From a virus: a DNA stretch of 11,385 nt. Below are positions 1 through 10,272 of this stretch, piece after piece. Each line of letters starts with the position of its first letter. Position 1 is the first letter of the stretch. Position numbers and translations under genes: made by a program. The DNA is taken from UHGV virus genome UHGV-0346646, one strand, 5' to 3'. The notes beneath the pieces were generated by a model that saw only the letters and a list, made by a program, of their open reading frames with translations, was not told the origin of the DNA and did no database searches.

Positions 1-642
1 CGCTTCCACGGCGTTATTGATTACGCGCTTGCTGAAAGTGGCCCTGTGCTCTGAATAGATCGCCACCATTTCGCGGCTAAGTTCCATTGTGCTGACCGGA
101 CACCATACCCCGCCGCGCCATACGTGAACGATTTCACTTTCAGGATGTACGCAAACGCCATCAAAGCGATCGGCAAGCAGCTGCGCGCGCTCACTGTCCG
201 CCATCTGCGAAAGTTGCGCCTTTTGCTTTACCGGAAGCTCAATGACCAGACCATCAGAAAGATTCTGGCGCTCACGGGCCAGATATTCGCGCCAGTTCTC
301 CACCTTCTGACCGTGCATACCATCAGGGTAAAAATTTGCATCCTGTACGCCTGCCGCCGCCAGCTTCTGGCCAATCGCCTTTATCATTACTGGCGCAAGA
401 TATCCGGCCCTGAATATGCGCACGGATTTTCTGCCTTCCGGCACAATTTGCAGCTTATCCAGTTCTGATAACTGCTGCTCCCCAAGCCACACAGGAGGCT
501 CATTATCTCCGGCCATACGCGCATCATGTTCCTGCCATTGTTTCGCGTGTGCCCAGGCATCACTACCCGCAAAAATAATGACTTCTGTTCCTTTGTGTTT
601 TATGCCGCGTGACTGCTGTTTTACGTTCGGTGCCAGTTTCAT
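1..642 (-). CDS. hypothetical protein, 5-prime part only (gene continues past window start)
   Basis: ATG at 642-640 overlaps the stop of the upstream gene (ATGA). Frame stays open for all 214 codons down to position 1; checked by hand translation (MKLAPNVKQQSRGIKHKGTEVIIFAGSDAWAHAKQW...VWRGGVWCPVSTMELSREMVAIYSEHRATFSKRVINNAVEA). Absent from the ORF track because it has no stop inside the window. Function not recognised. Confidence 0.5.
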   Translation of the reverse strand, partial: MKLAPNVKQQSRGIKHKGTEVIIFAGSDAWAHAKQWQEHDARMAGDNEPPVWLGEQQLSELDKLQIVPEGRKSVRIFRAGYLAPVMIKAIGQKLAAAGVQDANFYPDGMHGQKVENWREYLARERQNLSDGLVIELPVKQKAQLSQMADSERAQLLADRFDGVCVHPESEIVHVWRGGVWCPVSTMELSREMVAIYSEHRATFSKRVINNAVEA

Positions 643-938
643 TTTTTACCCCTGAATCCTTTAATCATGGTTTTCATCTTCTGAATATTGGCGCGTGCTT
701 TCTCCCTGCTGGTGGGCACGTTACGCGGTACGGCCTGCACAAGAGAAAAATCACGGTCGAACTGATAAACAGGCATCACGCAATCATATTCGTAGCCTTC
801 ACGACGGTAGGTTACGCGCCGTTCCTCCACGCCCTTAATCATTACCGTGCCGCCGTACTTATCGCGGTAAATATCACCGCGCATGAATTTAGTGCGAGTT
901 TTGCCACTGGCAGTTAAGCCAGAATATTTAAGTTTCAT
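639..938 (-). CDS. hypothetical protein (99 aa)
   Basis: ATG at 938-936 with GGAGAA upstream; stop overlaps the start of the next minus-strand gene (ATGA at 639-642). Part of a translationally coupled minus-strand operon. No recognisable motif. Confidence 0.5.
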   Translation of the reverse strand: MKLKYSGLTASGKTRTKFMRGDIYRDKYGGTVMIKGVEERRVTYRREGYEYDCVMPVYQFDRDFSLVQAVPRNVPTSREKARANIQKMKTMIKGFRGKK

Positions 939-943
939 TATTT

Positions 944-1177
944 TTATTCTCCGGTGTGGGGCGCTTTATACTGGTCGTGTAATGTCTCTATTTCCTGCAA
1001 CTCATTTATTACAGGCTCAAGAAGCGTTATTAATGCCGTGACAATCCTTGATTTCTGTTTATCACGTTCATTATCTCCAAGCGTTTCAAGACATATGCGC
1101 AATATTTCCAACATATTTTCACTGTGAGAAAGTGCAAGAAATGCGCGGTCTATTGTTTCGTGGTAAATATCACGCAT
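944..1177 (-). CDS. hypothetical protein (77 aa)
   Basis: ATG at 1177-1175 preceded by GGGGA; stop at 944-946 lies 5 nt before the next gene start. Protein-like composition. Confidence 0.5.
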   Translation of the reverse strand: MRDIYHETIDRAFLALSHSENMLEILRICLETLGDNERDKQKSRIVTALITLLEPVINELQEIETLHDQYKAPHTGE

Positions 1178-1178
1178 A

Positions 1179-1613
1179 TTAATCCCCGTCCGTCGTTTTT
1201 CTTAAAATAACCTCTGTCACGAAATCAGCATAATCGGCGGCGATATTCAGTACATCAAGCCCCGTTGATTTATATTCTCTCGTGGAAAGTAAGAAAAAAT
1301 CCGCTCTAATAAGCTCTGGCATTGACGAAAGCGCATCAGCCGCATCATCAGGAACGCCGGAAAATTCCTGTTTCAGGGAATTAAAACGATCATCACGCAT
1401 AACCCCCCCATTTTCACAATCAGCAACAAGAATATTTTTAGCGTCATTCAGCGACCGCGTTGCGATGTATCGGATACATTCCAGGGCGAACTGTGTCCGG
1501 TCTTTCTGTTCTTCTCCCTGCGCAAGCTCTGCCGTGCATTCAATATCAATAAGCGCGTGCATCAGCGTAGTGAGTGCGGCGGCGGCTGCGTCCGGTGTGG
1601 TTTTATTGCACAT
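1179..1613 (-). CDS. hypothetical protein (144 aa from the ATG at 1613; track ORF starts further upstream at 1667)
   Basis: Internal ATG at 1613 is preceded by GGAGGGG at good spacing; the 1667 start has no Shine-Dalgarno. Overlaps the stop of the upstream gene by 11 nt. Function not recognised. Confidence 0.5.
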   Translation of the reverse strand: MCNKTTPDAAAAALTTLMHALIDIECTAELAQGEEQKDRTQFALECIRYIATRSLNDAKNILVADCENGGVMRDDRFNSLKQEFSGVPDDAADALSSMPELIRADFFLLSTREYKSTGLDVLNIAADYADFVTEVILRKTTDGD

Positions 1614-1833
1614 GTACCCCTCCGCATTTTTTTTCGTTAGAAATAAGCGTTCTTCTTTCCTGTTCATCGCTCAGGAATACGCAGACCTCACCGCTAAGGC
1701 GTTTAAGTAAGCCGATGATTGCCCCTGATTCGCTGTCGGTCATCATGCCAGGGTAATCCTCTGCCAGTGCGCAAATAACTTCGATTTGGTGGGCGCGTTC
1801 TGCTGCCTGTTGTAGTGTGATTTCCTGGCTCAT
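1603..1833 (-). CDS. hypothetical protein (76 aa)
   Basis: ATG at 1833-1831 overlaps the stop of the upstream gene (ATGA); GGGGG upstream. Confidence 0.45.
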   Translation of the reverse strand: MSQEITLQQAAERAHQIEVICALAEDYPGMMTDSESGAIIGLLKRLSGEVCVFLSDEQERRTLISNEKKCGGVHVQ

Positions 1834-2030
1834 AAGCCTACCCCCTGACGAATACGGGCAGCAAATACCATCACGCAGCCAGCCGGAGATTGCTGGCGTG
1901 CTTCCTGTTCGCTGGTGGCCTCAATGGTAATCACGCGCGGTTGTGCCGTGCTCAGGGCGATAAAACGCCAGATGTATTTATTCAGGTTGTGCGAGTCCCG
2001 CCCTTGCGGGTGTGTGGTATGATTTAACAT
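1830..2030 (-). CDS. small protein (66 aa), possibly Icd-like; family assignment is tentative
   Basis: ATG at 2030-2028 with GAGG 5-6 nt upstream; first gene of the minus-strand operon, downstream of a strong predicted promoter. It is also the C-terminal 66 codons of the long track ORF 1830..3116, which I consider a read-through artefact. Confidence 0.5.
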   Translation of the reverse strand: MLNHTTHPQGRDSHNLNKYIWRFIALSTAQPRVITIEATSEQEARQQSPAGCVMVFAARIRQGVGL

Positions 2031-2067
2031 AGCTACCTCGATACTTTCGCTATCGTTGGTGGTTAGA

Positions 2068-2100
2068 AGCCCTGCGAGTGGTAACGACACTTGCGGGGCT
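2068..2100. promoter_or_regulatory. 13-bp-arm inverted repeat (AGCCCTGCGAGTG / CACTTGCGGGGCT, 7-nt loop) in the leader of the minus-strand operon
   Basis: Read directly: the arms pair fully if two G-U wobbles are allowed. Sits between the predicted minus-strand promoter and the start at 2030. Confidence 0.4.
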
Positions 2101-2127
2101 TTGCATTTATGCACCTTGATAATCTCA

Positions 2128-2168
2128 AGGTGTAGCCCACTATATGCTTTAGGTGTGGCCCACGTCAA
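2128..2168 (-). promoter_or_regulatory. predicted sigma70 promoter for the minus-strand small-gene operon, overlapped by two direct repeats (AGGTGTAGCCCAC 2128-2140 and AGGTGTGGCCCAC 2151-2163)
   Basis: On the minus strand: -35 TTGACG (2168-2163), 18-bp spacer, -10 TATAGT (2144-2139). The direct repeats overlap the spacer and the start site, as operator sites would. Confidence 0.4.
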
Positions 2169-2170
2169 GG

Positions 2171-2199
2171 GTTTTATTTGTGCTTTTTCTGTGTATACT
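2171..2199 (+). promoter_or_regulatory. possible promoter for the ribbon-helix-helix gene
   Basis: -10 TATACT at 2194-2199; the -35 is weak (GTTTTA region). Divergent from the minus-strand promoter. Confidence 0.3.
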
Positions 2200-2229
2200 G
2201 TCCCCCACCAATCCAACAGAGGAATAGAA

Positions 2230-2409
2230 ATGGCAACGGGTACAACAAACGCAAAATCACAAGCTCTAAAGGCTCGTGTACCACACGAAATAGTAAACGC
2301 CATGGAATCAGTGAAAGAATCAGGCGAAAGCACATCACAATTCATCATTGCGTCAATGCAAGGCGAGATCAAACGCCGCCAGCGCCGCAAGGCCAAAGAG
2401 CAGGAGTAA
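2230..2409 (+). CDS. ribbon-helix-helix (Arc/MetJ/CopG-like) DNA-binding protein, 59 aa
   Basis: ATG at 2230 with AGAGGAA Shine-Dalgarno. Protein MATGTTNAKSQALKARVPHEIVNAMESVKESGESTSQFIIASMQGEIKRRQRRKAKEQE has the strand-helix-helix pattern typical of RHH repressors. Followed by tandem plus-strand terminators. Confidence 0.6.
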   Translation: MATGTTNAKSQALKARVPHEIVNAMESVKESGESTSQFIIASMQGEIKRRQRRKAKEQE

Positions 2410-2466
2410 CCATCACCAGCGCCGTGGTGTGAGTAACTACGGCGCATTGCTATGCAGGACAACACA

Positions 2467-2640
2467 ATGACCGATAAAGAATTGACCAAAACATTATCAC
2501 CGGCACGGAAAAGACGGCGCAGAAAGATAGAGCATGAATCAGAAAGATTCGCGCCATGTGCTTTTGCCCTTGAGCAATTCCTTAAAGAGTACAGGGAAAA
2601 GCGCTCATTGCAGGTATGGCAACGAACTGAACCTGACTGA
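2467..2640 (+). CDS. possible small basic protein (57 aa)
   Basis: ATG at 2467 with a weak AGGA upstream; Lys/Arg-rich (SPARKRRRRK). Lies between the RHH gene and the plus-strand terminators. Weakly supported. Confidence 0.3.
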   Translation: MTDKELTKTLSPARKRRRRKIEHESERFAPCAFALEQFLKEYREKRSLQVWQRTEPD

Positions 2641-2719
2641 TTGCATTGCCCACCAGCCGCAAATGTGGCATTGTTGGCAATGCTCATGCGTTGGGGATAA
2701 CGTGTAGCTTGTGTCGAGG

Positions 2720-2748
2720 GGCCACCGTAGCGGGTGGCCTTTGTTTTG
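2720..2748 (+). terminator. rho-independent terminator
   Basis: Stem GGCCACC / GGTGGCC with loop GTAGCG, followed by TTTGTTTTG. Confidence 0.6.
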
Positions 2749-2843
2749 CCCGTTATTCGGCAATTGTGGCGCTTCTCCACATGGTTGATATAATCCCACT
2801 GCTCAGATTCATTTTTTGCGCAGTAGGTTAATTGTTCACAAAG

Positions 2844-2877
2844 GCGCTCCGGCAACGGGGCGCTTTTTGTTTTTATT
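2844..2877 (+). terminator. rho-independent terminator (second of a tandem pair)
   Basis: Stem GCGCTCCG / CGGGGCGC (one G-U) with loop GCAA, followed by TTTTTGTTTTTATT. Confidence 0.6.
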
Positions 2878-2882
2878 AGTTT

Positions 2883-3116
2883 GTAGAAACCTGACTCAGA
2901 GATAATGCTCATATTCTGATTGCCGTCAGGGGTGTAAGTTAAATTTACTCCCTTTTTATCATCAAACATCTGCAACGCTCTGGCGTTAACAATATTGGTT
3001 TCACTCCCGCCAGTAAGGCCGGAAATAACCGGAATAATTTCGGCAAAATTTTGCAGATTCTGTTTTTCAGGACGAACGAAGCCCCGCCCTTGTTCGGGAG
3101 AATATCCAGTATTCAT
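2883..3116 (-). CDS. BRO-N / antirepressor-like N-terminal domain ORF, probably truncated or degenerate
   Basis: First ~78 codons of track ORF 1830..3116 (…DDKKGVNLTYTPDGNQNMSIISESGFYKLI) resemble the C-terminal half of a BRO-N domain from memory. The similarity ends where the plus-strand terminator at 2844-2877 is encoded; the remaining ~350 codons have Cys/Trp/Arg-rich antisense-like composition. True end unknown. Confidence 0.3.
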
Positions 3117-3168
3117 GGTTAGATCTCTGTATTAGTGGATGGGTGGCGGCTGTGTGCCGCCAGCCTGA

Positions 3169-3357
3169 TTAGTGAACTGCCTCGCAGCTGTCCTTCCATG
3201 CCAGAACTTCGGATAAAGACCAGCCAACGGAACGACCGCCCAGCTTACGCCGTGATGGGAATTGTCCGGCTTTTTCCAGGTGGTACCGACATGAGCGGCT
3301 CAGGCCTGTAAGTTGCTGACATTCTTTTTCACGTATAAAGCGATCTGTGCTTAACAC
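3169..3357 (-). CDS. alpA: AlpA-family (prophage CP4-57-type) transcriptional regulator / excisionase-like HTH protein
   Basis: GTG start at 3357-3355 preceded by GGGGGA. Protein (…QQLTGLSRSCRYHLEKAGQFPSRRKLGGRSVGWSLSEVLAWK) matches the AlpA pattern TG.SR.T.Y…G.FP…KLG.RSVGW..SE…W. Sits next to the integrase, as in P4-like islands. Confidence 0.85.
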   Translation of the reverse strand: MLSTDRFIREKECQQLTGLSRSCRYHLEKAGQFPSRRKLGGRSVGWSLSEVLAWKDSCEAVH

Positions 3358-3640
3358 AATTCCCCCTTTGTTGTTTCTTAAAGAGTCATTGGGTGGATTA
3401 TTGGGTTGGGTTGTGTCGGATTGTGTCAGGGTGTTTGTGGAATGGCAAACACTGGCGGCGGTCGTTTTACAGAAGCAGGGGAAATGAGAATAAAAACTCT
3501 TTTAATTCATTATGATGCAAAGGCATAAAATTTTACTTTTACGCCTTTTTTACATATTTTTAAGAGTGATTCGCCAGTGTATAAAAAAACAGTACACCTA
3601 TAAAAATCAAATGGTTATTACGATGGCTGATTTTTAACCC

Positions 3641-3700
3641 GTTGTTCCATTTTGTTCCTTGTTGTTCGTCGTTGTGTCTCGTTGTTTCACGTTGTCCGCA
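3641..3700. repeat. cluster of short direct repeats (CGTTGTT/CGTTGTC units) between the integrase and alpA
   Basis: Read directly: gttgttccattttgttccttgttgttcgtcgttgtgtctcgttgtttcacgttgtcc. Related TTGTGTC units occur at 3400-3440. Confidence 0.5.
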
Positions 3701-3722
3701 TCCTGAAAAATCGCAAAAAAAA

Positions 3723-4970
3723 TTATATTTCTCTGGCTATTGGCAATGTGGTTACGTTTTCATGTGTTCCCGCCAGTATCCCTAACCGCTCCGTCCACAT
3801 ATCCAGCGCGTCACGTTTCGCATCCAGATAACGGGAATGGTTATAGACTCGTTGCATCCCTGGCATCTGATGACCTGTAAGCTGCTCCACGACGTGAGGA
3901 TCCACGCCTAAATCGTTCAGCATCGTTGTAAAGGTGCGCCGGATGTCATGCAGTGACCAGTGAGGGTGTTTTAGCCTCCTGTGCGCTAATCTGCCGTACT
4001 GCGACACGCTTGTTTCCTGTTTCACTTCCCCCAGCAATAAGCCCGTGTGCCTGTTCTGCTCCACCAGCTGCGTGACGAACGGCAGTATTGCTTCCGGTAT
4101 GGGCCGGAATATTGCCACCTTCGTTTTGCTGTGTTCTTTCGGCACGGTCCAGAGCATTTCGGTAAAATCCCACTCGCTGATCTCCGATAACCTCAGTTCT
4201 ACCGTCCGGCATCCGAAAACAATCAGGAGGCGGATTAGTGCGACGTAGTAAGGGGAAAATATTTTTTTGTCCAGTGCCTGCAATAATTCGCCAAGTTCTT
4301 TGGTGCTTAAGACGCGCTCGCTTATATCCGGTTTTTTCCCAACGTCCGCCACACTCATATCATCAAGAACGTTGCTGATTGCATAGCGCCGCCTCCGGCA
4401 GAACTTAAGCGCCTGTTTGCACGTCTGTAGCAAGAATCCGGCAGTAACAGGCGTTCGCTTTGCCACCTGGTCAAAACAGGCCAGCCAGTGCCGTAGCTCG
4501 CATTTATCCAGCGGCATAGCACCAATGTGCTGTATTACGTGATTATTAAGGCGCTTTTTCAGGGCGGCATAATCCACGCGGTTTTCCTTTGCGTACGACT
4601 CAAGCCAGTAGGTGAGCGCATCGCCAACCGTTACCGGCTTTAACGCTTCCTGTACGGTGTAATTCATTTCATGACGTGGATTTTTCCCCTCTGCCAGCCA
4701 TGCGCGACACTGGGCGGCTTTTTCCCTGGCTGATTTCAGGCTCAGATCAGGATAATTTCCCAGCTTAATGCGTTCCGGTGGTGCCCCCCTTCCCGTTCCG
4801 GCCCTGTAAGTGAAATACCAGGTTAAAAGGCCACTGGTTGAATGCCTGACGCTCAGGTTTCCACCGTCATTAAGAAAGGCTGTTTTTTGGGCGGGTGTGC
4901 CGTTGATTTTCCTCAGCTGTGTATCGCTCAGTTTGTTAAGTGCTCTGCTCATAATTTTGATTCCGGTCAT
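3723..4970 (-). CDS. int: P4-type tyrosine integrase (site-specific recombinase, phage integrase family)
   Basis: Conserved C-terminal catalytic region HDIRRTF…GHQMPGMQRVYNHSRYLD (H-x-x-R and catalytic Tyr context) and an N-terminal arm-binding-type region like P4/CP4-57 integrases. Start is ambiguous: GTG 4973, ATG 4970 or ATG 4952 (MSRALNKLSDTQ…). Confidence 0.9.
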   Translation of the reverse strand: MTGIKIMSRALNKLSDTQLRKINGTPAQKTAFLNDGGNLSVRHSTSGLLTWYFTYRAGTGRGAPPERIKLGNYPDLSLKSAREKAAQCRAWLAEGKNPRHEMNYTVQEALKPVTVGDALTYWLESYAKENRVDYAALKKRLNNHVIQHIGAMPLDKCELRHWLACFDQVAKRTPVTAGFLLQTCKQALKFCRRRRYAISNVLDDMSVADVGKKPDISERVLSTKELGELLQALDKKIFSPYYVALIRLLIVFGCRTVELRLSEISEWDFTEMLWTVPKEHSKTKVAIFRPIPEAILPFVTQLVEQNRHTGLLLGEVKQETSVSQYGRLAHRRLKHPHWSLHDIRRTFTTMLNDLGVDPHVVEQLTGHQMPGMQRVYNHSRYLDAKRDALDMWTERLGILAGTHENVTTLPIAREI

Positions 4971-4972
4971 CA

Positions 4973-5009
4973 CAATTAACTACACCATTAACTACACCGA
5001 TCGTTGCAC
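4973..5009. repeat. direct repeat copy 1 (contains tandem AACTACACC units), immediately upstream of and overlapping the integrase start
   Basis: caattaactacaccattaactacaccgatcgttgcac. A near-identical copy lies 234 bp away at 5207-5242; the flanks share a degenerate ACAACGTG-GAACAA motif. Confidence 0.7.
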
Positions 5010-5206
5010 AAAGGGCTACAACGTGAAACAAGCTGGAACAAGGAAAATCACAAATCTGTTTATAATCAAAAACATAATGAACAACCTGAAACATTATGAA
5101 ACGGCAAAAAACACTAATTGATAAAATATGTCCTTTTATCACTACATCAAGGCAAGCCATTGATTTAATTAAATGATTTGCACTGCAAAAAGTGCTAAAA
5201 ATCGCA

Positions 5207-5242
5207 AATTGACTACACCATTAACTACACCGATCGTTGCAC
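5207..5242. repeat. direct repeat copy 2 of the integrase-upstream repeat
   Basis: aattgactacaccattaactacaccgatcgttgcac; one mismatch against copy 1. Confidence 0.7.
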
Positions 5243-5451
5243 TGTATGAAACAACGTGGAACAAATAGACACAAGAAATATACAGGCGGGTCATCTTTCC
5301 AGGGGGAAGCGCGCCAATTCATGAGGGGCGTTAATGTCGATATGGGGATCCCCATAACGGGGCTACCTGGCTTTTTTCCGGTTAAATGTCAATCAGGCTG
5401 GTGGGTTTTACATACCCTTGATCACCGTAATGATGATCCAGATGTGCGCCT

Positions 5452-5507
5452 TTCCACCAATGGTGGAAAAGCCCACAGCAGGCCGCCCAGCCTCCCCCAA
5501 TGGGGGA
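5452..5507. repeat. pair of related GC-rich palindromes (TTCCACCAATGGTGGAA at 5452-5468; TCCCCCAATGGGGGA at 5493-5507)
   Basis: Read directly; centres 41 bp apart. A third palindrome, ATGGGGATCCCCAT, is at 5342-5355. Candidate protein-binding or recombination core sites in the non-coding junction. Confidence 0.5.
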
Positions 5508-5515
5508 TTGTGGAA

Positions 5516-5684
5516 GAATCAACGGGTTAGGCCTTAATGGGCTGCGTGGTAATTATCAGCATCCAGAATATGACGGGTTATGTTTCCGACCTCTTCAATT
5601 TGAGGTTCCCGAAAATATCAACGGGTTAGGCTGGTTTCCCCGATGTTCGCCGCTGGCGAATTTCGAAAATATCAACCAGTTACC
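5516..5684. repeat. three direct repeats of an ATCAAC(G/C)(G/A)GTTA(G/C)(G/C) unit (5516-5533, 5608-5632, 5662-5684)
   Basis: gaatcaacgggttaggcc; cccgaaaatatcaacgggttaggct; ttcgaaaatatcaaccagttacc. The last copy overlaps the stop of the 93-aa gene. Confidence 0.5.
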
Positions 5685-5961
5685 GCCGCAACCGCTCCGG
5701 CTTCTTCCAGTGGTACGTAATTTTCTCCGTTTCCCGATACAGTGCCACGCGGCGATTGTAGGCCAGCATTTCAAGAACGCGGATCCGTATGTTGCGCATA
5801 TCCACATCATTAAGCTGGATACCATTACGGCGAATCACCTCAGCAACCACACGAACATAATTTTCGGCGGTCACGCTGTCCGGCTGCGTGGTCTGTTCGT
5901 CGGCCTGCTGGCTGATTCCGGCAACGCGGCGGATTAATCGCAGTATTTCGGCTTCTGTCAT
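5680..5961 (-). CDS. hypothetical protein (93 aa), last gene of the packaging-side module
   Basis: ATG at 5961-5959 with GGGGG 5 nt upstream; the track ORF 5680..6159 extends upstream through the cos copy and is not credible there. Protein MTEAEILRLIRRVAGISQQ… has no recognised motif. Confidence 0.5.
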   Translation of the reverse strand: MTEAEILRLIRRVAGISQQADEQTTQPDSVTAENYVRVVAEVIRRNGIQLNDVDMRNIRIRVLEMLAYNRRVALYRETEKITYHWKKPERLRR

Positions 5962-5994
5962 TGTGCCCCCATCGTTCTGATAGTCTGGTGTCGT

Positions 5995-6066
5995 CGGGTC
6001 CTTCCTGGAATTATGGCCCGTTACGGGGCGGCGACCTCGCGCGTTTTCACTATTTATGAAAATTTT
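5995..6066 (+). other. lambda-type cos site, copy 1 (cosN with cohesive-end sequence GGGCGGCGACCT at 6026-6037)
   Basis: gttacgGGGCGGCGACCTcgcgcgttttcactatttatgaaaattttt is near-identical to the lambda genome junction (…GTTACG / GGGCGGCGACCTCGCGGGTTTTCGCTATTTATGAAAATTTTCCGG) as I remember it. Confidence 0.75.
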
Positions 6067-6075
6067 TCGGGATCC

Positions 6076-6172
6076 ATGTCCGGTTTCTCTGCAAGTTAAC
6101 CATATGAAAAATATAAAAACATGCTTTCCATGAACCGGACATGCGCAAAAAACAGACACTAAAACCGGACAT
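6076..6172 (+). promoter_or_regulatory. cosB-like repeats: ATGTCCGGTT (6076-6085, inverted), AT-rich spacer, AACCGGACAT (6134-6143) and AACCGGACAT (6163-6172)
   Basis: One inverted plus two direct 10-bp sites with an A/T-rich stretch between the inverted pair, paralleling lambda cosB (R3 - IHF site I1 - R2 - R1). Lies directly after cosN copy 1. Confidence 0.5.
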
Positions 6173-6240
6173 CGAACCAGTTAACCGAAAGTGTGCACAA
6201 ATCACATGCATTGCTGCGAGTGATTAACAAGTTATCGGCT

Positions 6241-6675
6241 TTACTGTTCTGTATCGGCTGATTGCTCCATGCTGGCACGGCGAACGCTTACGGCATGACG
6301 CCACCCAGCCAGAAAGCCAGCCATTTTATTTCGTGCCTTGCTCACATCTTCCGGTGAATAGCCGTAAATCTGCAAACCTTCATCAAATCGATGTTCTGTT
6401 TCTTCACTGGAGTACTCGTCACGCTCAGATGAAAGCAGCCTGGCAAACATAATTTTTTCCAGCGCACTGGTTTCTACGTGATATCTGATGGCCTCAAGAC
6501 GGCTTTTACCTGAAGACCAAAGCAATGTATGCCCGATGTGATAACCGCCAGACTTTCCGCGATCCGCATTAAGATACGGCATCCCCTGTTTGGTCCATGC
6601 GCGAATAGTGGTTCTGTTAACCTTGAAATGTTCAGCTATTTCCTGCTGACTTACAAAACAAGCTTTATCAATCAT
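6241..6675 (-). CDS. lambda Nu1-like small terminase-type protein (N-terminal winged-HTH DNA-binding domain), 144 aa
   Basis: ATG at 6675. N-terminus VSQQEIAEHFKVNRTTIRAWTKQGMPYLNADRGKSGGYHIGHTLLW aligns by eye with lambda Nu1 KKQLADIFGASIRTIQNWQEQGMPVLRGGGKGNEVLYDSAAVIKW. Shorter than Nu1 (181 aa). Lies about 90 bp downstream (minus strand) of cosN copy 2. Confidence 0.7.
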   Translation of the reverse strand: MIDKACFVSQQEIAEHFKVNRTTIRAWTKQGMPYLNADRGKSGGYHIGHTLLWSSGKSRLEAIRYHVETSALEKIMFARLLSSERDEYSSEETEHRFDEGLQIYGYSPEDVSKARNKMAGFLAGWRHAVSVRRASMEQSADTEQ

Positions 6676-6744
6676 AATGTTACCTTAACTGCATGGTTAA
6701 ATATTAATCAAGTGGTGGTGGTGTCACCTTCACGGAAAAACGTC

Positions 6745-6807
6745 ATAAATAGCGAAAACCCGCGAGGTCGCCGCCCCGTAACGGGCCATAATTCCAGGAA
6801 GGACCCG
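6745..6807 (-). other. lambda-type cos site, copy 2, inverted relative to copy 1 (cohesive-end sequence at 6765-6776 read on the minus strand)
   Basis: Reverse complement reads cgggtccttcctggaattatggcccgttacgGGGCGGCGACCTcgcgggttttcgctatttatg; 47 bp are identical to copy 1 and about 70 bp match with two mismatches. Confidence 0.75.
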
Positions 6808-6808
6808 T

Positions 6809-6830
6809 AAAAAAGCCGGATTTCTCCGGC
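6809..6830 (-). terminator. rho-independent terminator ending the capsid operon
   Basis: Minus-strand hairpin GCCGGA-GAAA-TCCGGC followed by TTTTTT, just after the stop at 6837. Confidence 0.65.
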
Positions 6831-6836
6831 CTTGTC

Positions 6837-7250
6837 TCAGATGGTTTTCAGTATGCGATCGATGTCGCCGTCATCGCCCTGGTTTCTGCCATCGTATGCC
6901 ATGCCAGCTGATACGGCTTGCGGGCTGTGCATGTCCATAAAGTTTTCAAAGGCTGCGGTAAGCTCTGGTGCAACCTTTGGGCGCTCCTGCTCTATGGTCA
7001 TGTTCAGGATTTCACGAGCATTATCGACGCTAATACATGGCACGTTTGCCATTGCACGTAACAGCGGCTGATAGTCTTTATGCTCATGAAGCGCCATAAT
7101 CGCATCAGCGCGCGGCTTGTCCTGCTCTTCCAGTTTGTTTAGTTGATATACGGCCTCATAGGTTGATAAACCTCTGTCAGCCATTGCCCGCGCTTCGGCT
7201 TTAAATTTACTCGCCAGCGGTAGCGTCATGATGCTTTCATTCGTTGCCAT
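6837..7250 (-). CDS. hypothetical protein (137 aa), last gene of the capsid operon; possible scaffold-like or capsid accessory protein (speculative)
   Basis: ATG at 7250 with GGGGG 5 nt upstream; predicted helix-rich and acidic. Function not recognised. Confidence 0.55.
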   Translation of the reverse strand: MATNESIMTLPLASKFKAEARAMADRGLSTYEAVYQLNKLEEQDKPRADAIMALHEHKDYQPLLRAMANVPCISVDNAREILNMTIEQERPKVAPELTAAFENFMDMHSPQAVSAGMAYDGRNQGDDGDIDRILKTI

Positions 7251-7262
7251 CGTTCCCCCTGC

Positions 7263-7598
7263 TTATCGGGCCAGCGGCTGAACGGATACGCCGGAACCCG
7301 CAAAGGCGGCGCATTTTTTCGCATCGGTGTCGACGCTCTCAGGCCAGTTAACGGCGGCAATATTGAATATCCCCGTCTTGTAACACTGTGCTGATTTCTG
7401 CTTTGACGTGTCCACAGGGTACGAGGTCAGATAAACAGCCTTGCCAGATTCCTGACCATCCCACGGCTTAAACTCGCCATTGTCCGCCAGCATCAGCGGG
7501 GTAAATTCCTGAATAACGCCAGCATCAGCGGCAAAATGTACCAGCGTCGTGGCGACCTGCTGACTGCCTGCAAATAACTCAATGTATGGAGTGTCCAT
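7263..7598 (-). CDS. head decoration protein, lambda gpD family
   Basis: TPLMLADNGEFKPWDG…YKTGIFNIAAVNWPES…AKKCAAFAGSGVSV aligns by eye with lambda gpD TPLMLDTSSRKLVAWDG…YKSGTFRYEDVLWPEA…TKKRTAFAGTAISI. Similar length (111 vs 110 aa). GGGGG Shine-Dalgarno. Confidence 0.8.
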   Translation of the reverse strand: MDTPYIELFAGSQQVATTLVHFAADAGVIQEFTPLMLADNGEFKPWDGQESGKAVYLTSYPVDTSKQKSAQCYKTGIFNIAAVNWPESVDTDAKKCAAFAGSGVSVQPLAR

Positions 7599-7609
7599 AG
7601 AATCCCCCG

Positions 7610-8665
7610 TTAACCAATTTTGACGGTAACAAATTTGCGAATATCTGCCGGAACCGGCTGCGGTGCGCTGTGCGTCTGCACGTACTCAATCGCCGGATCG
7701 CCGTCCTCAATCCAGTTTTTCGGGTAAAACATGTTTTGCGTTGCGCCCGTTCTTACTGCGTCCTGATCCATAATCGCACCATAGGCCACCAGCCCTTTAT
7801 TGTTGGTGTTGCCCAGGACAAGCAAATCAGGCTCAAGGAAATATTTTTCTGTGCCGTCGCTGTCAGTGTATTTGCCGGAATAGACGATAAGGGCAATATC
7901 GCCCAGATAGCCTTTAAAGCTCACCACTTCGCCCAGGTTTTTACAGGCCAGCTCTGCGGCGGACTCTGAACCACGGGAAAGATCGTACAGCTCACGGAAT
8001 TTTTTAAAGCTGCGTAACGTTCGCCATACCTCAGCGCCCATAATCATGACGTTTGCGGGGCAACCAGCCTGATCGGCGTATAGTTCGATATCATAGATTG
8101 GATCGTGGGTTTCTTTGTCCTGCTCTGACCATTTTTTCCCGTCGGCCTGCTCTATGATGTTTTTTTCCGGTATCTTCCAGTCGATTTCATAGCGCTCTAT
8201 GCCTTCGCCTTCAATGATGTTTTTTCCGGTCGTTACCGCATTTACCGCCAGCCATTCCACGCGCGCTTTTATGGCGTTTATCTGGCGGCGCATATTGCCA
8301 GTAATCAGGCGCATACGGCGATAGGTAGGGTCGTTAAGCTGTGCCGGATCTTCTCCAGCCATGCGCATGATGGTTTTCGTTGGATCGATTTCGTGCTTTG
8401 GCTTCATGTAGCCAGGTTTAATCGTGCTGGTTTCGTACCCTTTATCGCGCTGAACCTGGCTACCCACCATAGGCGAACAAAACGCCGACATGGTGACTTC
8501 TTCAATGTCCAGGGTATCCAGCATGATGTTTTGCGTGCTGAATGTCGCCACGTTCGGGAAAAACAGCGTGGTAAACAGCGGACTGAATTTAAATTCCGCA
8601 ATATCCCCGCGATTCAGGTACGCAAAAAGCTGGTTAGTGTTAAGTGCCATTGCTTTTACTGTCAT
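7610..8665 (-). CDS. major capsid protein, lambda gpE family
   Basis: 351 aa with FKFSPLFTTLFF, PGYMKPKHE, DPTYRRMR, SFKGYLGDIALIVYSG, YPKNW and GDPAIE motifs matching lambda gpE (FKFDPLFLRLFF, PGYVKPKHE, DPAYRRRR, SYKGMYGDVAIVVYSG, YPKNW, GDPARE) at the same relative positions. Confidence 0.9.
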   Translation of the reverse strand: MTVKAMALNTNQLFAYLNRGDIAEFKFSPLFTTLFFPNVATFSTQNIMLDTLDIEEVTMSAFCSPMVGSQVQRDKGYETSTIKPGYMKPKHEIDPTKTIMRMAGEDPAQLNDPTYRRMRLITGNMRRQINAIKARVEWLAVNAVTTGKNIIEGEGIERYEIDWKIPEKNIIEQADGKKWSEQDKETHDPIYDIELYADQAGCPANVMIMGAEVWRTLRSFKKFRELYDLSRGSESAAELACKNLGEVVSFKGYLGDIALIVYSGKYTDSDGTEKYFLEPDLLVLGNTNNKGLVAYGAIMDQDAVRTGATQNMFYPKNWIEDGDPAIEYVQTHSAPQPVPADIRKFVTVKIG

Positions 8666-8871
8666 TATTCACCCCCGTGAACCTGATTCATACCCAGCGC
8701 CGCGCGTAAATAGGCGCGTACCTGCCAGCCTGTTGACGGCTCAACCATCGCCAGCGGATCAAGTCCTGCCGCAATGCCTGCTTTTACGTTCTGCTGGTGG
8801 CGTTCCTTGAGCGCCTTCACGATGTCGGGGCTTATGTACACCGAAACACCGCCTTTTTTCTCTTCAGCCAT
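8665..8871 (-). CDS. hypothetical protein (68 aa), first gene of the capsid operon
   Basis: ATG at 8871; stop overlaps the capsid gene start by 1 nt (TAATG). Shine-Dalgarno spacing is long (AGAGGA ~12 nt upstream), so the start is uncertain. Confidence 0.45.
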   Translation of the reverse strand: MAEEKKGGVSVYISPDIVKALKERHQQNVKAGIAAGLDPLAMVEPSTGWQVRAYLRAALGMNQVHGGE

Positions 8872-8904
8872 AGTAAGAAATTCCTCTTTGACTTAAAAAA
8901 TCAT

Positions 8905-8953
8905 AACTGGATGTTCATCCAGCTCTGATTATAATCATGATTGCATTTTGTGC
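8905..8953 (-). promoter_or_regulatory. predicted capsid-operon promoter with overlapping palindromes
   Basis: Minus strand: -35 TTGCAC (8953-8948), 16-bp spacer, -10 TATAAT (8931-8926) inside the palindrome GATTATAATC. The perfect inverted repeat CTGGATG-TT-CATCCAG (8905-8920) lies at about +1 to +16. Confidence 0.4.
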
Positions 8954-9036
8954 AATGATGTTGAGTTGCGTTGCAAATTATGAAATGATTATCCCGATCA
9001 TGTGTGTCAGTGCACCAAAAAGCCTCATATGCAAAA

Positions 9037-9073
9037 GCCCGATAAGCCACCTCTGACCTTATCGGGCTTTTTT
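9037..9073. terminator. orphan terminator-like hairpin in the 415-bp intergenic region
   Basis: GCCCGATAAG - 11-nt loop - CTTATCGGGC followed by TTTTTT on the plus strand (AAAA precedes it). No obvious plus-strand gene upstream. Confidence 0.35.
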
Positions 9074-9248
9074 ATCTGCCTGCAAAGATGTCGAACGAAA
9101 ATTAACCACAACCATCATCTTTTTTGCATCAAAACAATTAAAAACAATAAATTACGCTCATGATGATGATGACGATAAAATCACAAAAATGCGCTTTTTT
9201 CCGCGCCTCCCGCCCCGTGTTCAGGCCCACCCCGCCAGGAGGACCCGT

Positions 9249-9271
9249 AAAAAAGCCGGATTGCTCCGGCT
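9249..9271 (-). terminator. rho-independent terminator after the SSB gene
   Basis: Minus-strand hairpin AGCCGGA-GCAA-TCCGGCT followed by TTTTTT. Sequence is near-identical to the terminator module at 6791-6840. Confidence 0.6.
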
Positions 9272-9286
9272 TCTGTCTCTCGTCGC

Positions 9287-9709
9287 TTAAAACGGTATGT
9301 TATCCCCGTACGGATCATCATTCCCCGCCTGTTGTTTTGCCCTGTTCAGCGCGTCAGTAGCCTGGCCCTGTTGACCTTTTTTGCCGCCCAGTCGCGCCGT
9401 TCGCGCACTGATTACACTGTCTGCGATAACCTGCCAGCCCTGCCGCGTTTCTCCGTTCTGCCCAGTCCACTGGCTGATCTGCATGTTACCCGCCACGCTC
9501 AGGAGTTCACCCTTGCGGTGCCTTTCCAGTGCTTCGGCCTGTCTGCCAAATGCCAGGACGGATAACCACATCGTCGCCGTTCCGTCATCTGCCTGGCTGC
9601 ACGGAAGGGGGACCGCCATACGCGCCAGCGTCATCGGTGTGCCCTTGCTGGTCTGTTTTACCTGCGGGTCGTCCACCAGCCGCCCGTAAGCTGCTATCTG
9701 TGCTGTCAT
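9287..9709 (-). CDS. ssb: single-stranded DNA-binding protein (SSB, OB-fold)
   Basis: Aligns by eye with E. coli SSB: G.L..DP.V, W..V..FG..AE, RKG, W.G..G..R. C-terminal acidic tail ends NDDPYGDNIPF (compare SSB …DFDDDIPF). GAGGTGG Shine-Dalgarno. Confidence 0.75.
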   Translation of the reverse strand: MTAQIAAYGRLVDDPQVKQTSKGTPMTLARMAVPLPCSQADDGTATMWLSVLAFGRQAEALERHRKGELLSVAGNMQISQWTGQNGETRQGWQVIADSVISARTARLGGKKGQQGQATDALNRAKQQAGNDDPYGDNIPF

Positions 9710-9765
9710 GATTCCACCTCTCCGGTTTTAACGTTGATGGTTGTTACCTGTTCCGCTTCGGCAAT

Positions 9766-9984
9766 CTACCGCTCTGTCAGCGTGGCAAAATTTGCCGCCG
9801 TCGTGGTCATGAATGCGCTTATCAGTTCGGGATGTGCTTTCGCGTATCCTTCCCCCGCGTGGCGGTCTATCGTTCTGATTGCCACCTTTAAAGCGTGCTC
9901 TGTCATGTCTAACGCGCGATATTTCGGTTCTGTTCTGTCTCTGCGTTTTTTGAGTGATTTATTAAATTTCCCTGAAGTGTGCAT
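9766..9984 (-). CDS. hypothetical small protein (72 aa or shorter from an internal Met)
   Basis: ORF between the origin and ssb; the Shine-Dalgarno is poorly placed, so the start is uncertain. Confidence 0.4.
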   Translation of the reverse strand: MHTSGKFNKSLKKRRDRTEPKYRALDMTEHALKVAIRTIDRHAGEGYAKAHPELISAFMTTTAANFATLTER

Positions 9985-10033
9985 ATTTATTTTTACCCCC
10001 TCGTTTAAAAAGTTTTGAGTTGTGCCTCCCCTT

Positions 10034-10259
10034 GTCTACCTTATCTACCTTAGTGGCCCTCATGCCAGTAATGGCGCGGCTTTCAGCGGGGTAGAGTGCT
10101 TTTATCCACTATCTACCCCGTGTCTACCTCCCTGTCTGATTCAGGTAAAATCAGGTAGAGAGGGTAGATAGTGGGTAGACAGTAAAAAAAGGCTATCTAC
10201 CTAACTTAATGCACTGAATTAAATGTATTTTTCTTTACTCAGGTAGACAGGGTAGACAG
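10034..10259. repeat. iteron cluster, putative replication origin (about 11 copies of GGTAGA(C/G/T)AG in both orientations)
   Basis: TCTACC at 10035, 10044, 10112, 10123 and 10196; GGTAGA at 10089, 10154, 10163, 10174, 10242 and 10251. Immediately downstream of the primase/helicase stop at 10273. Confidence 0.7.
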
Positions 10260-10272
10260 CAATTACAAAAAA

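What the first reader, a model, noticed from the sequence alone, without database searches (positions are those of the whole stretch)
2030..2230. Divergent promoter region with direct-repeat operators and a long leader hairpin, next to a ribbon-helix-helix gene
A strong predicted minus-strand promoter (TTGACG - 18 bp - TATAGT) is overlapped by two direct repeats (AGGTGTAGCCCAC / AGGTGTGGCCCAC, each flanked by TCAAGG). A 13-bp-arm hairpin (2068-2100) sits in the leader of the small-gene operon. The divergently transcribed RHH protein is the obvious candidate repressor, since RHH proteins typically bind tandem direct repeats.
Basis: partly seen in the sequence, partly recalled or inferred. Interest (0 to 1): 0.55.

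Follow-up and report, generated by a model that had tools for sequence, protein, structure and literature searches.

The report
Hidden repressor switch of a phage satellite
The 200-base gap between two divergent genes of an E. coli phage satellite (an EcCICFT073-type PICI) seems to hold a complete on/off switch, made of a small ribbon-helix-helix repressor with three matching DNA sites and a previously undescribed antisense RNA, which would be the repressor not yet identified for Gram-negative PICIs.

Summary

The window is a circular permutation of an EcCICFT073-type PICI.

Comparison with about 150 related loci adds four points:
- A third repeat copy lies on the start of the ylcI promoter.
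- The repeat core co-varies one-to-one with two beta-strand residues of the divergent 59-aa protein. That protein is predicted to have a ribbon-helix-helix (RHH) fold. The core does not co-vary with AlpA, the downstream ORF, the Icd type or the hairpin type.
- The hairpin is selected on the plus strand, opposite to the operon leader (44 G·U pairs against 1). It ends a conserved two-hairpin RNA of about 80 nt, antisense to the icd-like ribosome site. This RNA has its own conserved -10 and has no Rfam match.
- The icd reading frame stays free of stop codons upstream, through the whole switch and antisense to ylcI. This matches the nested eta/kil genes of phage P4, and P4 Kil is in the same family as the icd-like protein.

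Best reading: this is a P4-type immunity region in which the CI RNA system is replaced by an RHH repressor plus a cis-antisense RNA.

The RHH-repressor idea is supported. The "leader hairpin" idea is not. Nothing here has been tested experimentally.

The parts
1830..2030 (-). icd-like gene (66 aa), first gene of the long minus-strand operon leading to the primase; homologue of P4 kil
   Evidence: NCBIfam phage_ICD_like, 69.9 bits. P4 Kil hits the same model at 76.1 bits. Annotated as Icd-like in ZH063 and CFT073.
2015..2023 (+). Predicted promoter of the antisense RNA: TGg + TATGAT (-10 at 2018-2023), inside icd codons 3-5; no recognisable -35
   Evidence: All 21 distinct upstream classes have a TANNNT hexamer at a fixed -43/-42 (one at -46) from the conserved GGTTAGA. 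This holds even though the overlapping icd N-termini differ.
2030..2108 (+). Predicted ~80-nt cis-antisense RNA. 5' stem-loop 2030-2065 (inner stem 2039-2043 with 2051-2055, loop 2044-2050). T-rich tail. Complementary to the icd Shine-Dalgarno (2036-2040) and to the first base of the AUG (2030; AUG is 2030-2028)
   Evidence: MFE -40.1 kcal/mol, z -6.9. The covariance model finds it full length, on the same strand, in 73 loci of many genera. There it is 97.7% paired with 14 of 21 pairs compensatory. G·U asymmetry favours the plus strand. No Rfam family matches. The ends are inferred, not mapped.
2044..2050 (+). 7-nt loop of the 5' stem-loop (CTTTCGC). It is variable inside a ~75-nt block that is otherwise nearly invariant
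   Evidence: Nine loop variants occur among 60 loci, shuffled across operator and hairpin classes. Positional variation in that block is concentrated in the loop and in icd codon 2.
2112..2132 (.). Inverted repeat CACCTTGA-N5-TCAAGGTG at the predicted 5' end of the icd mRNA; overlaps the left edge of O1
   Evidence: Sequence. It forms the first stem in the minus-strand fold. Other classes have a different sequence at the same place that is still an inverted repeat, e.g. TTGAGTG-ATAAA-CACTCAA. Function not followed up.
2128..2140 (.). Operator O1 (AGGTGTAGCCCAC), over the -10 edge and predicted start of the icd promoter
   Evidence: co-varies with O2, O3 and the RHH beta-strand.
2139..2168 (-). 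Promoter of the icd operon: -35 TTGACG (2168-2163), 18-bp spacer, -10 TATAGT (2144-2139); start predicted near 2132
   Evidence: geometry conserved in 117 of 126 distinct regions. The start site is inferred.
2151..2163 (.). Operator O2 (AGGTGTGGCCCAC), in the spacer and abutting the -35 of the icd promoter
2194..2199 (+). -10 (TATACT) of the ylcI promoter; weak -35 near 2171-2176, back to back with the icd -35
   Evidence: Sequence. TATACT is the commonest hexamer at this place in relatives.
2197..2208 (.). Operator O3 (ACTGTCCCCCAC), over the predicted start of the ylcI promoter. Degenerate in this window, perfect (TGTGGCCCAC) in relatives of the same class
   Evidence: four mismatches to O2 over 12 positions, so it is not listed.
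2230..2409 (+). 59-aa YlcI/YnfO-family protein with a predicted ribbon-helix-helix fold; candidate repressor. Beta-strand about residues 10-17 (KSQALKAR), helices 19-28 and 35-58
2467..2640 (+). Small basic ORF (57 aa) downstream of ylcI; a variable, swappable partner, absent in some loci
   Evidence: phrog_21027, no function. No Pfam or NCBIfam hit. Its types are shuffled relative to operator class.
2717..2747 (+). Intrinsic terminator of the ylcI-orf57 unit (stem AGGGGCCACC with GGTGGCCTTT, 6-nt loop, then GTTTT). A second terminator lies at 2840-2877
   Evidence: Fold; scan hit at 2840-2867.
1830..3116 (-). 428-codon stop-free frame in phase with icd. It starts 50 nt after alpA and runs antisense through orf57 and ylcI, both promoters and the leader. 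'eta-like' nested ORF
   Evidence: Zero stops in the icd phase across the intergenic region in 48 of 58 distinct sequences, against about 5 per other frame. The same is seen in 43 of 58 distinct loci from other genera. Weak Bro-N match at the N-terminus. P4 has the same arrangement, an open frame from vis to kil through PLE.
3169..3357 (-). alpA, the experimentally established activator of this PICI family; upstream of the eta-like frame
   Evidence: Pfam Phage_AlpA, 9e-18; PMC6092414.

Best explanation
Window 2015-2210 is the immunity or control region of an EcCICFT073-type PICI. It is homologous in layout to the PLE/kil region of satellite phage P4 but uses different effectors. I infer three layers.

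1. Protein lock. The 59-aa RHH protein is made from a weak promoter (-10 at 2194-2199). It binds three GTG-N5-CAC sites as dimers. O1 and O2 lie over the start, spacer and -35 of the strong icd-operon promoter and shut it. O3 lies over the protein's own start site and gives negative autoregulation. Residues 12 and 14 of the beta-strand read the variable 5-bp core. The invariant Arg16 would read the invariant GTG/CAC ends. This yields more than 20 specificity classes.

2. RNA lock. An RNA of about 80 nt starts inside the icd codons (-10 at 2018-2023) and ends at the hairpin 2066-2102. It is fully complementary to the icd leader. It probably starts pairing through a 7-nt kissing loop, covers the Shine-Dalgarno and start codon, and blocks icd translation. 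By analogy with P4 CI/kil and P1 c4/icd, this would lead to Rho-dependent polarity on the replication genes.

3. Bypass. Transcripts that come from alpA upstream carry a long stop-free frame in phase with icd. Their translation would run through the switch, escape both locks and interfere with ylcI expression.

Shown by computation: the sites, the fold, the covariation, the RNA structure and its strand, and the open frame. Inferred: binding, repression, RNA expression and ends, Rho involvement and the bypass.
For: Identity of the element.
- The window is a circular permutation of the CFT073/ZH063 island, 98-99% identical over most of its length.

RHH protein.
- Variable positions fall between the invariant S10 and R16.

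Operators.
- Three copies overlap both promoters.
- The mapping between core and strand residues is one-to-one in 148 loci and about 25 classes. The same class in different genera has different spacers.
- AlpA, orf2, Icd and hairpin types are shuffled relative to class.
- A natural hybrid, P0032, has the N-terminal half of one class and the C-terminal half of the window class.

Antisense RNA.
- Strand asymmetry.
- Covariation on the training set and on an independent set.
- A fixed -10.
- Strong fold.

P4 homology.
- kil and the icd-like gene are in one family.
- P4 has an open frame through PLE.
- The stop-free frame is seen here and in other genera.

Mutual exclusivity in these samples.
- 80 P4-like kil loci carry CI in 79, but no ylcI and no antisense-RNA match.
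- The window and 20 diverse RHH loci have no Rfam hit at all, and so neither C4 nor isrK, whereas P4 does.

Literature.
- AlpA is an activator, and the existence of a repressor in Gram-negative PICIs is called unclear (PMC6092414).
- No paper describing this module was found.
Against: - There is no experimental datum for binding, repression or RNA expression.
- The operators lie within about 100 bp of the beta-strand codons, so part of the covariation could be plain linkage.
- O3 is degenerate in this window.
- The antisense promoter has no -35. It overlaps coding sequence, which by itself constrains it.
- The U-tract after the hairpin is interrupted (UUUGCAUUU here; UUCGCUAUUUU is typical). 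Termination may therefore be partial, and the RNA may also serve as a long leader of ylcI.
- The stop-free frame is absent in about a fifth to a quarter of loci.
- The test that co-resident islands always differ in class is only suggestive (0 of 21 pairs, P = 0.064).
Confidence: 0.62

Rival explanations
1. One reading: an RHH-repressed divergent promoter pair, with the hairpin acting in the minus-strand leader as an attenuator or mRNA stabiliser, and no antisense RNA.
For: The hairpin lies inside the predicted 5' UTR of the icd mRNA. The minus strand can still form a weaker version of it, -16 kcal/mol for the hairpin, and the whole leader has z -3.9.
Against: Among 23 distinct hairpin variants the plus strand has 44 G·U pairs and the minus strand has 1. 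Canonical pairing is 94% against 81%, and mean stability is -23.2 against -17.2 kcal/mol. The 5' stem (UAGCUACC with GGUGGUUA) also needs G·U pairs that become C·A on the minus strand, and one of them is invariant in 67 of 68 sequences. A -10 hexamer sits at a fixed distance in all classes.
Confidence: 0.1
2. The repeats are bound by another protein (AlpA, integrase, the primase/initiator, or the product of the small ORF after ylcI). The RHH protein would then be an unrelated passenger, for example an antitoxin of a toxin-antitoxin pair with orf57.
Against: One AlpA allele occurs with six different repeat classes. One orf2 type occurs with three or more classes, and the ORF is absent in several loci. 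orf57 has no toxin family match. The repeats overlap the divergent icd promoter, not only the ylcI promoter. Repeat class follows the RHH beta-strand exactly.
Confidence: 0.07
3. The plus-strand structured RNA is not a free-standing antisense regulator. It would be the 5' part of a long leader of ylcI made from a second, upstream promoter, with the hairpin acting as a partial terminator or stabiliser. Its main effect would be transcriptional interference with the icd promoter and supply of repressor.
For: The U-tract after the hairpin is interrupted. The RNA is always co-oriented with ylcI and 115-200 nt upstream of it. The plus-strand frame in phase with ylcI is stop-free in 28 of 58 sequences.
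Against: The ylcI gene has its own well-conserved -10 next to O3. The RNA covers the icd translation start exactly, and its loop is complementary to the loop of the mRNA hairpin next to the Shine-Dalgarno. The two readings are not exclusive.
Confidence: 0.15

Closest known systems
Satellite phage P4 immunity region (PLL-vis-eta / PLE-CI RNA-kil; Rfam C4 RF01695, isrK RF01394, c4-a1b1 RF03163)
   Same: - An AlpA/Vis-family gene lies upstream.
- A strong early promoter comes next.
- The first translated gene is a 65-66-aa Kil/Icd-like protein of the same NCBIfam family.
- That gene is the end of a longer in-frame ORF that begins just after vis/alpA and spans the promoter.
- An RNA is aimed at the translation start region.
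- The primase operon lies downstream.
- P4 immunity works by premature termination (PMC4825925). From memory of Forti et al. 1999, whose title appears, translation of the kil region prevents Rho-dependent termination.
   Different: - No C4, isrK or c4-a1b1 element is present (positive control on P4; 20 relatives).
- The RNA here is on the opposite strand (cis-antisense) and is not processed from the leader.
- P4 has no RHH repressor and no operators. Conversely, 80 P4-like loci have no ylcI and no match to the antisense-RNA model.
- The eta-like frame here runs antisense through a whole divergent gene cassette.
Phage P22 immI region (Arc and Mnt ribbon-helix-helix repressors, divergent Pant/Pmnt promoters, sar antisense RNA)
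   Same: Works alike (from established knowledge of P22):
- Small RHH repressors whose N-terminal strand residues i, i+2 and i+4 read the operator.
- Operators over back-to-back divergent promoters.
- Autoregulation.
- An antisense RNA of about 69 nt that starts inside the downstream gene and covers its ribosome site.

   Different: - There is no sequence-level homology to Arc or Mnt.
- There is one repressor instead of two, and three single 11-13-bp sites instead of 21-bp and 17-bp operators.
- The target gene is kil/icd-like, not an antirepressor.
- The host element is a satellite, not a phage.
Phage P1/P7 immI (c4 RNA - icd - ant)
   Same: The first gene is icd, the name-giving member of the Icd-like family. 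An RNA blocks icd translation, and this causes polarity on the downstream gene (established knowledge).
   Different: c4 is a sense-strand RNA processed from the same transcript and belongs to Rfam C4, which is absent here. No RHH repressor is involved.
YlcI/YnfO family (DUF3950) proteins of lambdoid prophages DLP12 and Qin
   Same: Same NCBIfam family, NF041551 at 67.4 bits against a cut-off of 30. K-12 YlcI also shows an RHH-like pattern, NIRFPNQMIEQI.
   Different: - K-12 YlcI is only about 18% identical over 22 residues.
- It sits next to cos and nohD, not next to an icd-like gene.
- It has no match to the antisense-RNA model.
- No function is reported for the family.
Stl/Rpr master repressors of Gram-positive PICIs (SaPIs)
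   Same: A repressor gene divergent from the replication/packaging operon keeps the island silent (PMC6092414).
   Different: Stl proteins are larger HTH repressors that are inactivated by binding helper-phage proteins. Here the protein is a 59-aa RHH. An RNA lock and a read-through frame are added. Induction is known to go through AlpA.

Membership tests
Ribbon-helix-helix (Arc/MetJ/CopG) DNA-binding fold | N-terminal beta-strand followed by two helices | tested here: met
Ribbon-helix-helix (Arc/MetJ/CopG) DNA-binding fold | Alternate strand residues determine operator specificity | tested here: met
   Residues 12 and 14 co-vary with the 5-bp operator core in 148 loci, and R16 is invariant like the GTG/CAC ends. 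This is correlative evidence.
Ribbon-helix-helix (Arc/MetJ/CopG) DNA-binding fold | Obligate dimer forming a two-stranded antiparallel sheet | not testable with these tools
   Only single-chain prediction is available.
Ribbon-helix-helix (Arc/MetJ/CopG) DNA-binding fold | Match to a curated RHH sequence family (Pfam RHH_1, Arc, etc.) or to a solved RHH chain | tested here: not met
   No Pfam RHH hit at E up to 0.1. No PDB sequence hit with the single sequence or the profile.
YlcI/YnfO family (NCBIfam NF041551) | Score above the curated cut-off | tested here: met
   67.4 bits against a cut-off of 30.
P4-type immunity region | Kil/Icd-like protein as the first translated gene after the early promoter | tested here: met
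P4-type immunity region | The kil-like gene is the end of a longer in-frame ORF (eta) that begins upstream of the promoter, after vis/alpA | tested here: met
   The window frame runs 3116 to 1830. It is conserved stop-free. The P4 frame is shown.
P4-type immunity region | CI RNA (Rfam C4) with seqA/seqC targets (isrK, c4-a1b1) on the sense strand | tested here: not met
   No hit at E up to 1 in the window and none in 20 relatives. All three families are found in P4. The structure here is on the other strand.
P4-type immunity region | Rho-dependent termination when kil translation is blocked | not testable with these tools
   Needs in vivo or in vitro transcription assays.
Cis-encoded antisense RNA regulator (sar, CopA or Sok type) | Own promoter on the opposite strand, stable stem-loops, terminator, full complementarity to the target translation start | tested here: inconclusive
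   Structure, strand and complementarity are met. The -10 is conserved. The U-tract is interrupted. Expression was not testable.
Type II toxin-antitoxin pair with RHH antitoxin | Conserved adjacent toxin gene of a recognisable family | tested here: not met
   orf57 has no Pfam or NCBIfam match. The partner varies or is missing.
Gram-negative PICI (EcCICFT073 type) | int, alpA and a primase of the same element, flanked by att sites, about 11 kb, with captured phage late genes | tested here: met
   98-99% identical to the CFT073 and ZH063 islands over most of its length.

The most novel reading that the evidence does not exclude
The RHH protein with its three operators, the cis-antisense RNA and the stop-free eta-like frame together form the missing master immunity system of Gram-negative PICIs. 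With more than 20 repressor/operator classes and a variable kissing loop, it would set which islands can co-reside or exclude each other. AlpA would induce the island not by activating the icd promoter but by driving translated read-through. That read-through would run antisense across the repressor gene and bypass both locks.
Probability: 0.3. Interest if true: 0.8.

Novelty: new variant of a known kind. Interest (0 to 1): 0.68.

Why it matters
EcCICFT073 is the model Gram-negative PICI. Its regulation is described only through the activator AlpA, and the 2018 paper that defined the family states that the existence of a repressor is unclear. Later papers, up to 2026, still list the YlcI/YnfO protein as an accessory gene.

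A repressor-operator pair with many specificity classes would matter in several ways:
- It would explain how these islands stay silent.
- It would explain why several islands can share one genome.
- It would suggest how the islands diversify.
- It would give a natural set of orthogonal small repressors with predictable DNA codes.

The antisense RNA would be a new RNA family present across Enterobacterales.

The conserved stop-free frame links PICIs mechanistically to P4. The 2018 paper argued that PICIs and P4 evolved independently.

Tried and rejected
- Rfam search of the window at E up to 1 gave only a chance mir-135 match elsewhere. P4 served as positive control.
- Pfam and PDB sequence searches for the RHH protein gave nothing useful.
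- I considered AlpA, orf57, Icd and hairpin type as the partner of the repeats. All are shuffled relative to repeat class.
- I looked for further operator copies elsewhere in the window and found none at one mismatch or fewer.
- I looked for a second (trans) target of the antisense RNA in the window and found none.
- I looked for a YlcI paralogue in the stretch of the neighbouring CFT073 lambdoid prophage that I fetched (the helper), as a possible decoy. None was found, and I dropped the idea.
- A profile search for diverse Icd/Kil loci failed because the alignment was too divergent. The single-protein search returned only close P4 relatives.
- The P4 nested-gene paper (PMC94026) is not held. 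That mechanism is therefore cited from memory, from its title and from the P4 sequence itself.
- Six literature searches, and text searches in two recent papers, found no description of this module. Subscription journals are not covered.
- The within-genome class-exclusion test reached only P = 0.064.
Full report
**What the window is**

The ORF map shows these genes:
- an integrase (3723-4973, minus strand)
- alpA (3169-3357, minus strand)
- an icd-like gene (1830-2030, minus strand)
- a divergent 59-aa YlcI/YnfO-family gene (2230-2409, plus strand)
- a lambda-E-like capsid gene and a decoration gene
- an SSB gene
- a primase gene split across the window ends

BLAST against the annotated islands of E. 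coli ZH063 and CFT073 shows that the window is a circular permutation of that island. It is 98-99% identical over most of its length, and the att junction lies near 5124-5133. The 59-aa protein is 100% identical to the CFT073 protein. The finding therefore lies in the control region of an EcCICFT073-type island; EcCICFT073 is the model Gram-negative PICI. [quoted passage not shown]

**Check of the observation**

- The minus-strand promoter TTGACG-18-TATAGT is present at 2168-2139.
- The two 13-mers are at 2128-2140 and 2151-2163, 23 bp apart. They are the only matches with one mismatch or fewer in the window.
- The hairpin arms are 2067-2080 and 2088-2101.
- The promoter hit alone is not statistically remarkable. 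Its geometry, however, is conserved in 117 of 126 distinct related regions.

**Comparative data**

I collected 80 loci from viral contigs and 78 from one-genome-per-species bacterial contigs. The latter cover Yersinia, Xenorhabdus, Proteus, Morganella, Pectobacterium, Dickeya, Serratia and others.

Reading the upstream regions side by side shows a third copy of the repeat directly after the -10 (TATACT) of the ylcI promoter. It is perfect in many relatives and degenerate (GTCCCCCAC) in the window.

All three copies change together from locus to locus. The ends GTG and CAC stay constant, and the central five bases define classes such as TGGCC, TCAGC, TCTTA/TAAGA, GAATC, AATCG, AAATA, TCGGA, TTGAA and AACAC. 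In some classes one copy is inverted, so the site is pseudo-palindromic rather than strictly direct.

**Which protein reads the sites**

In the alignment the variable positions lie between the invariant S10 and R16, that is, on the predicted strand. Across 148 loci the pair of residues 12 and 14 predicts the operator core:
- Locus pairs with the same residues have cores within one mismatch in 92% of cases.
- Locus pairs with different residues do so in 0.9% of cases.

The same class occurs in different genera with different spacer sequences.

In contrast, AlpA alleles, the ORF after ylcI, the Icd N-terminal type and the hairpin type are all shuffled relative to operator class. A natural hybrid protein carries the N-terminal half of one class and the C-terminal half of the window class (P0032).

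Physical linkage contributes to this pattern. Even so, recombination points are visible on both sides, within tens of bases. I conclude that the RHH protein is the operator-binding protein. The positions of the sites then imply its roles. O1 lies on the start, and O2 lies in the spacer against the -35 of the icd promoter, so it should repress the icd operon. O3 lies on its own start site, so it should repress itself.

**The hairpin**

I folded 31 variants on both strands. The plus strand is more stable in nearly all of them, with a mean of -23.2 against -17.2 kcal/mol. On the alignment of 23 distinct hairpins, the plus strand has 94% canonical pairs with 44 G·U. The minus strand has 81% canonical pairs with a single G·U. 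Nine of 14 pairs show compensatory changes. The structure is therefore selected in an RNA made from the plus strand, antisense to the icd leader.

Upstream of the hairpin, every one of 21 distinct sequence classes has a TANNNT hexamer at a fixed distance. In the window this is TATGAT at 2018-2023, preceded by TG. The fixed position holds although the overlapping icd N-termini differ.

The RNA from about 2029 to 2110 folds into two hairpins at -40.1 kcal/mol, z -6.9. The conserved GGUGGUUA pairs with UAGCUACC, which holds the anti-Shine-Dalgarno sequence.

A covariance model built on the first set finds the RNA full length, always co-oriented with ylcI, in 73 loci from other genera. It finds no match in P4 or at the K-12 ylcI locus. 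On that independent set, 97.7% of cells pair, 14 of 21 pairs are compensatory, and slid controls give 32-50%.

Rfam has no matching family for the window or for 20 relatives.

The tail after the hairpin is T-rich but interrupted. The 3' end, and the efficiency of termination, are therefore uncertain.

The 7-nt loop of the 5' hairpin has nine variants inside a 75-nt block that is otherwise nearly invariant. It is the exact complement of the loop of the mRNA hairpin that abuts the Shine-Dalgarno. This suggests a kissing-loop start of pairing with its own specificity. That point is inference.

**An unexpected feature**

The ORF list contains a 428-codon minus-strand frame (3116 to 1830) that ends as icd. 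In 48 of 58 distinct sequences, the frame in phase with icd has no stop codon across the roughly 199-bp intergenic region or antisense through ylcI. The other two frames have about 5 and 8 stops.

The intergenic length is kept at 1 modulo 3. As a result the two overlapping frames share wobble positions.

The same holds in 43 of 58 distinct loci from other genera.

The N-terminus of the frame has a weak Bro-N match.

**Link to P4**

- P4 Kil (65 aa) belongs to the same NCBIfam family as the icd-like protein.
- In the P4 sequence the frame in phase with kil is open upstream through the PLE promoter, to the end of vis, which is the AlpA homologue.
- This is the published eta/kil nested-gene arrangement (Forti et al. 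1999, title seen).
- As I recall that paper, kil is the first gene translated from PLE and is under immunity control. eta is translated only from the upstream PLL transcript. Translation of the region prevents Rho-dependent termination.
- P4 immunity by premature termination through CI RNA is summarised in PMC4825925.

The PICI region is thus the positional and architectural counterpart of the P4 immunity region. It lacks C4, isrK and c4-a1b1, which Rfam does find in P4, and it has the RHH cassette and the antisense RNA instead.

Among 80 P4-like kil loci, 79 have CI and none has ylcI or the antisense RNA. Among the RHH loci, none has CI by BLAST or Rfam.

**Model**

In the silent state the RHH protein closes the icd promoter and limits its own synthesis. 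Any escaping icd mRNA is paired by the antisense RNA, which blocks icd translation and probably causes polarity on the replication genes. Upon helper-phage-dependent alpA expression (shown experimentally), transcripts from upstream carry the translated eta-like frame across the switch. These transcripts are insensitive to both locks, and they collide with ylcI transcription.

My confidence in each part of this model is as follows:

| Part of the model | Probability |
|---|---|
| RHH/operator part | about 0.75 |
| Existence of the antisense RNA | about 0.6 |
| Mechanism of the antisense RNA | about 0.45 |
| Read-through bypass | about 0.25 |

**Other points**

- Co-resident islands in nine genomes never share a class: 0 of 21 pairs against 2.5 expected, P = 0.064. 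This is suggestive of immunity groups only.
- No paper in the searchable library describes the module.
- A 2023 survey notes 'immunity repressor RNAs' (C4, isrK) in the same zone of some Gram-negative PICIs, but it does not mention this RNA or an RHH repressor.
- A 2026 survey lists YlcI/YnfO only as an accessory gene.

**Verdict**

The feature is a new variant of a known kind of phage or satellite immunity region, sitting in a model element where the repressor has been an open question.

Noticed in passing
window 1-11385; junction near 5124-5133: The window is a circular permutation of the integrated island of CFT073/ZH063. The primase gene is split over the window ends, and a 10-bp overlap of the two alignment blocks marks the att junction. 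It therefore looks like an excised, circularised or packaged PICI rather than a chromosomal stretch.
   Followed up: partly
window 5995-6072 and 6730-6807: A 78-nt inverted repeat (91% complementary) flanks the 144-aa HTH gene at 6241-6675, which has a weak Phage_Nu1 match. Each arm matches lambdoid phage DNA and resembles the cos-proximal sequence next to nohD in DLP12 (GAAAACCCGCGAGGTCGCCGCCCCGTAACCTGTCGGATC). These are probably the island's cos sites around its packaging-redirection gene.
   Followed up: partly
window 10105-10186 (minus strand): A long, nearly perfect hairpin with repeated GGTAGA-like units lies just downstream of the primase gene. Rfam scored it as a sub-threshold chance mir-135 match. 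It may be part of the replication origin, which in these islands lies after pri.
   Followed up: no
window 2044-2050: The loop of the 5' hairpin of the predicted antisense RNA has nine variants among 60 otherwise nearly identical loci, and the variants are shuffled across backgrounds. This may be a specificity determinant, as with kissing loops of plasmid antisense RNAs, or it may simply be unconstrained.
   Followed up: partly
window 1975-2065: A block of about 75-90 nt covering the first ~18 icd codons and the proximal leader is almost invariant across 60 loci, including third codon positions. The rest of icd varies freely. The block contains a GC hairpin (CCCGCCCTTGCGGG, 1999-2012) of unknown role just upstream of the antisense -10.
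   Followed up: no
window 2112-2132: The inverted repeat CACCTTGA-N5-TCAAGGTG lies at the predicted start of the icd mRNA and overlaps O1. Other classes keep an inverted repeat there with a different sequence. It could be a 5' stabilising stem or a further protein site.
   Followed up: no
loci L096/L130/L137/L145, L110/L122/L126/L153 and seven other genomes: Genomes carrying two to four such islands always have different repressor/operator classes (0 of 21 same-class pairs, 2.5 expected, P = 0.064).
   Followed up: partly
window 2467-2640 and the equivalent place in L002-L081: The small basic ORF after ylcI belongs to a set of interchangeable short ORFs (several related K/R-rich types, or none). 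It moves independently of the repressor class, and its function is unknown.
   Followed up: partly
window 2230-2409, residues 46-52: The C-terminal helix motif EIKRRQR is (nearly) invariant in all classes and genera, while the DNA-reading strand varies: E46-R50 are invariant and Q51 and R52 nearly so. It could be an oligomerisation surface, a backbone-contact surface, or the target of an inducer.
   Followed up: no
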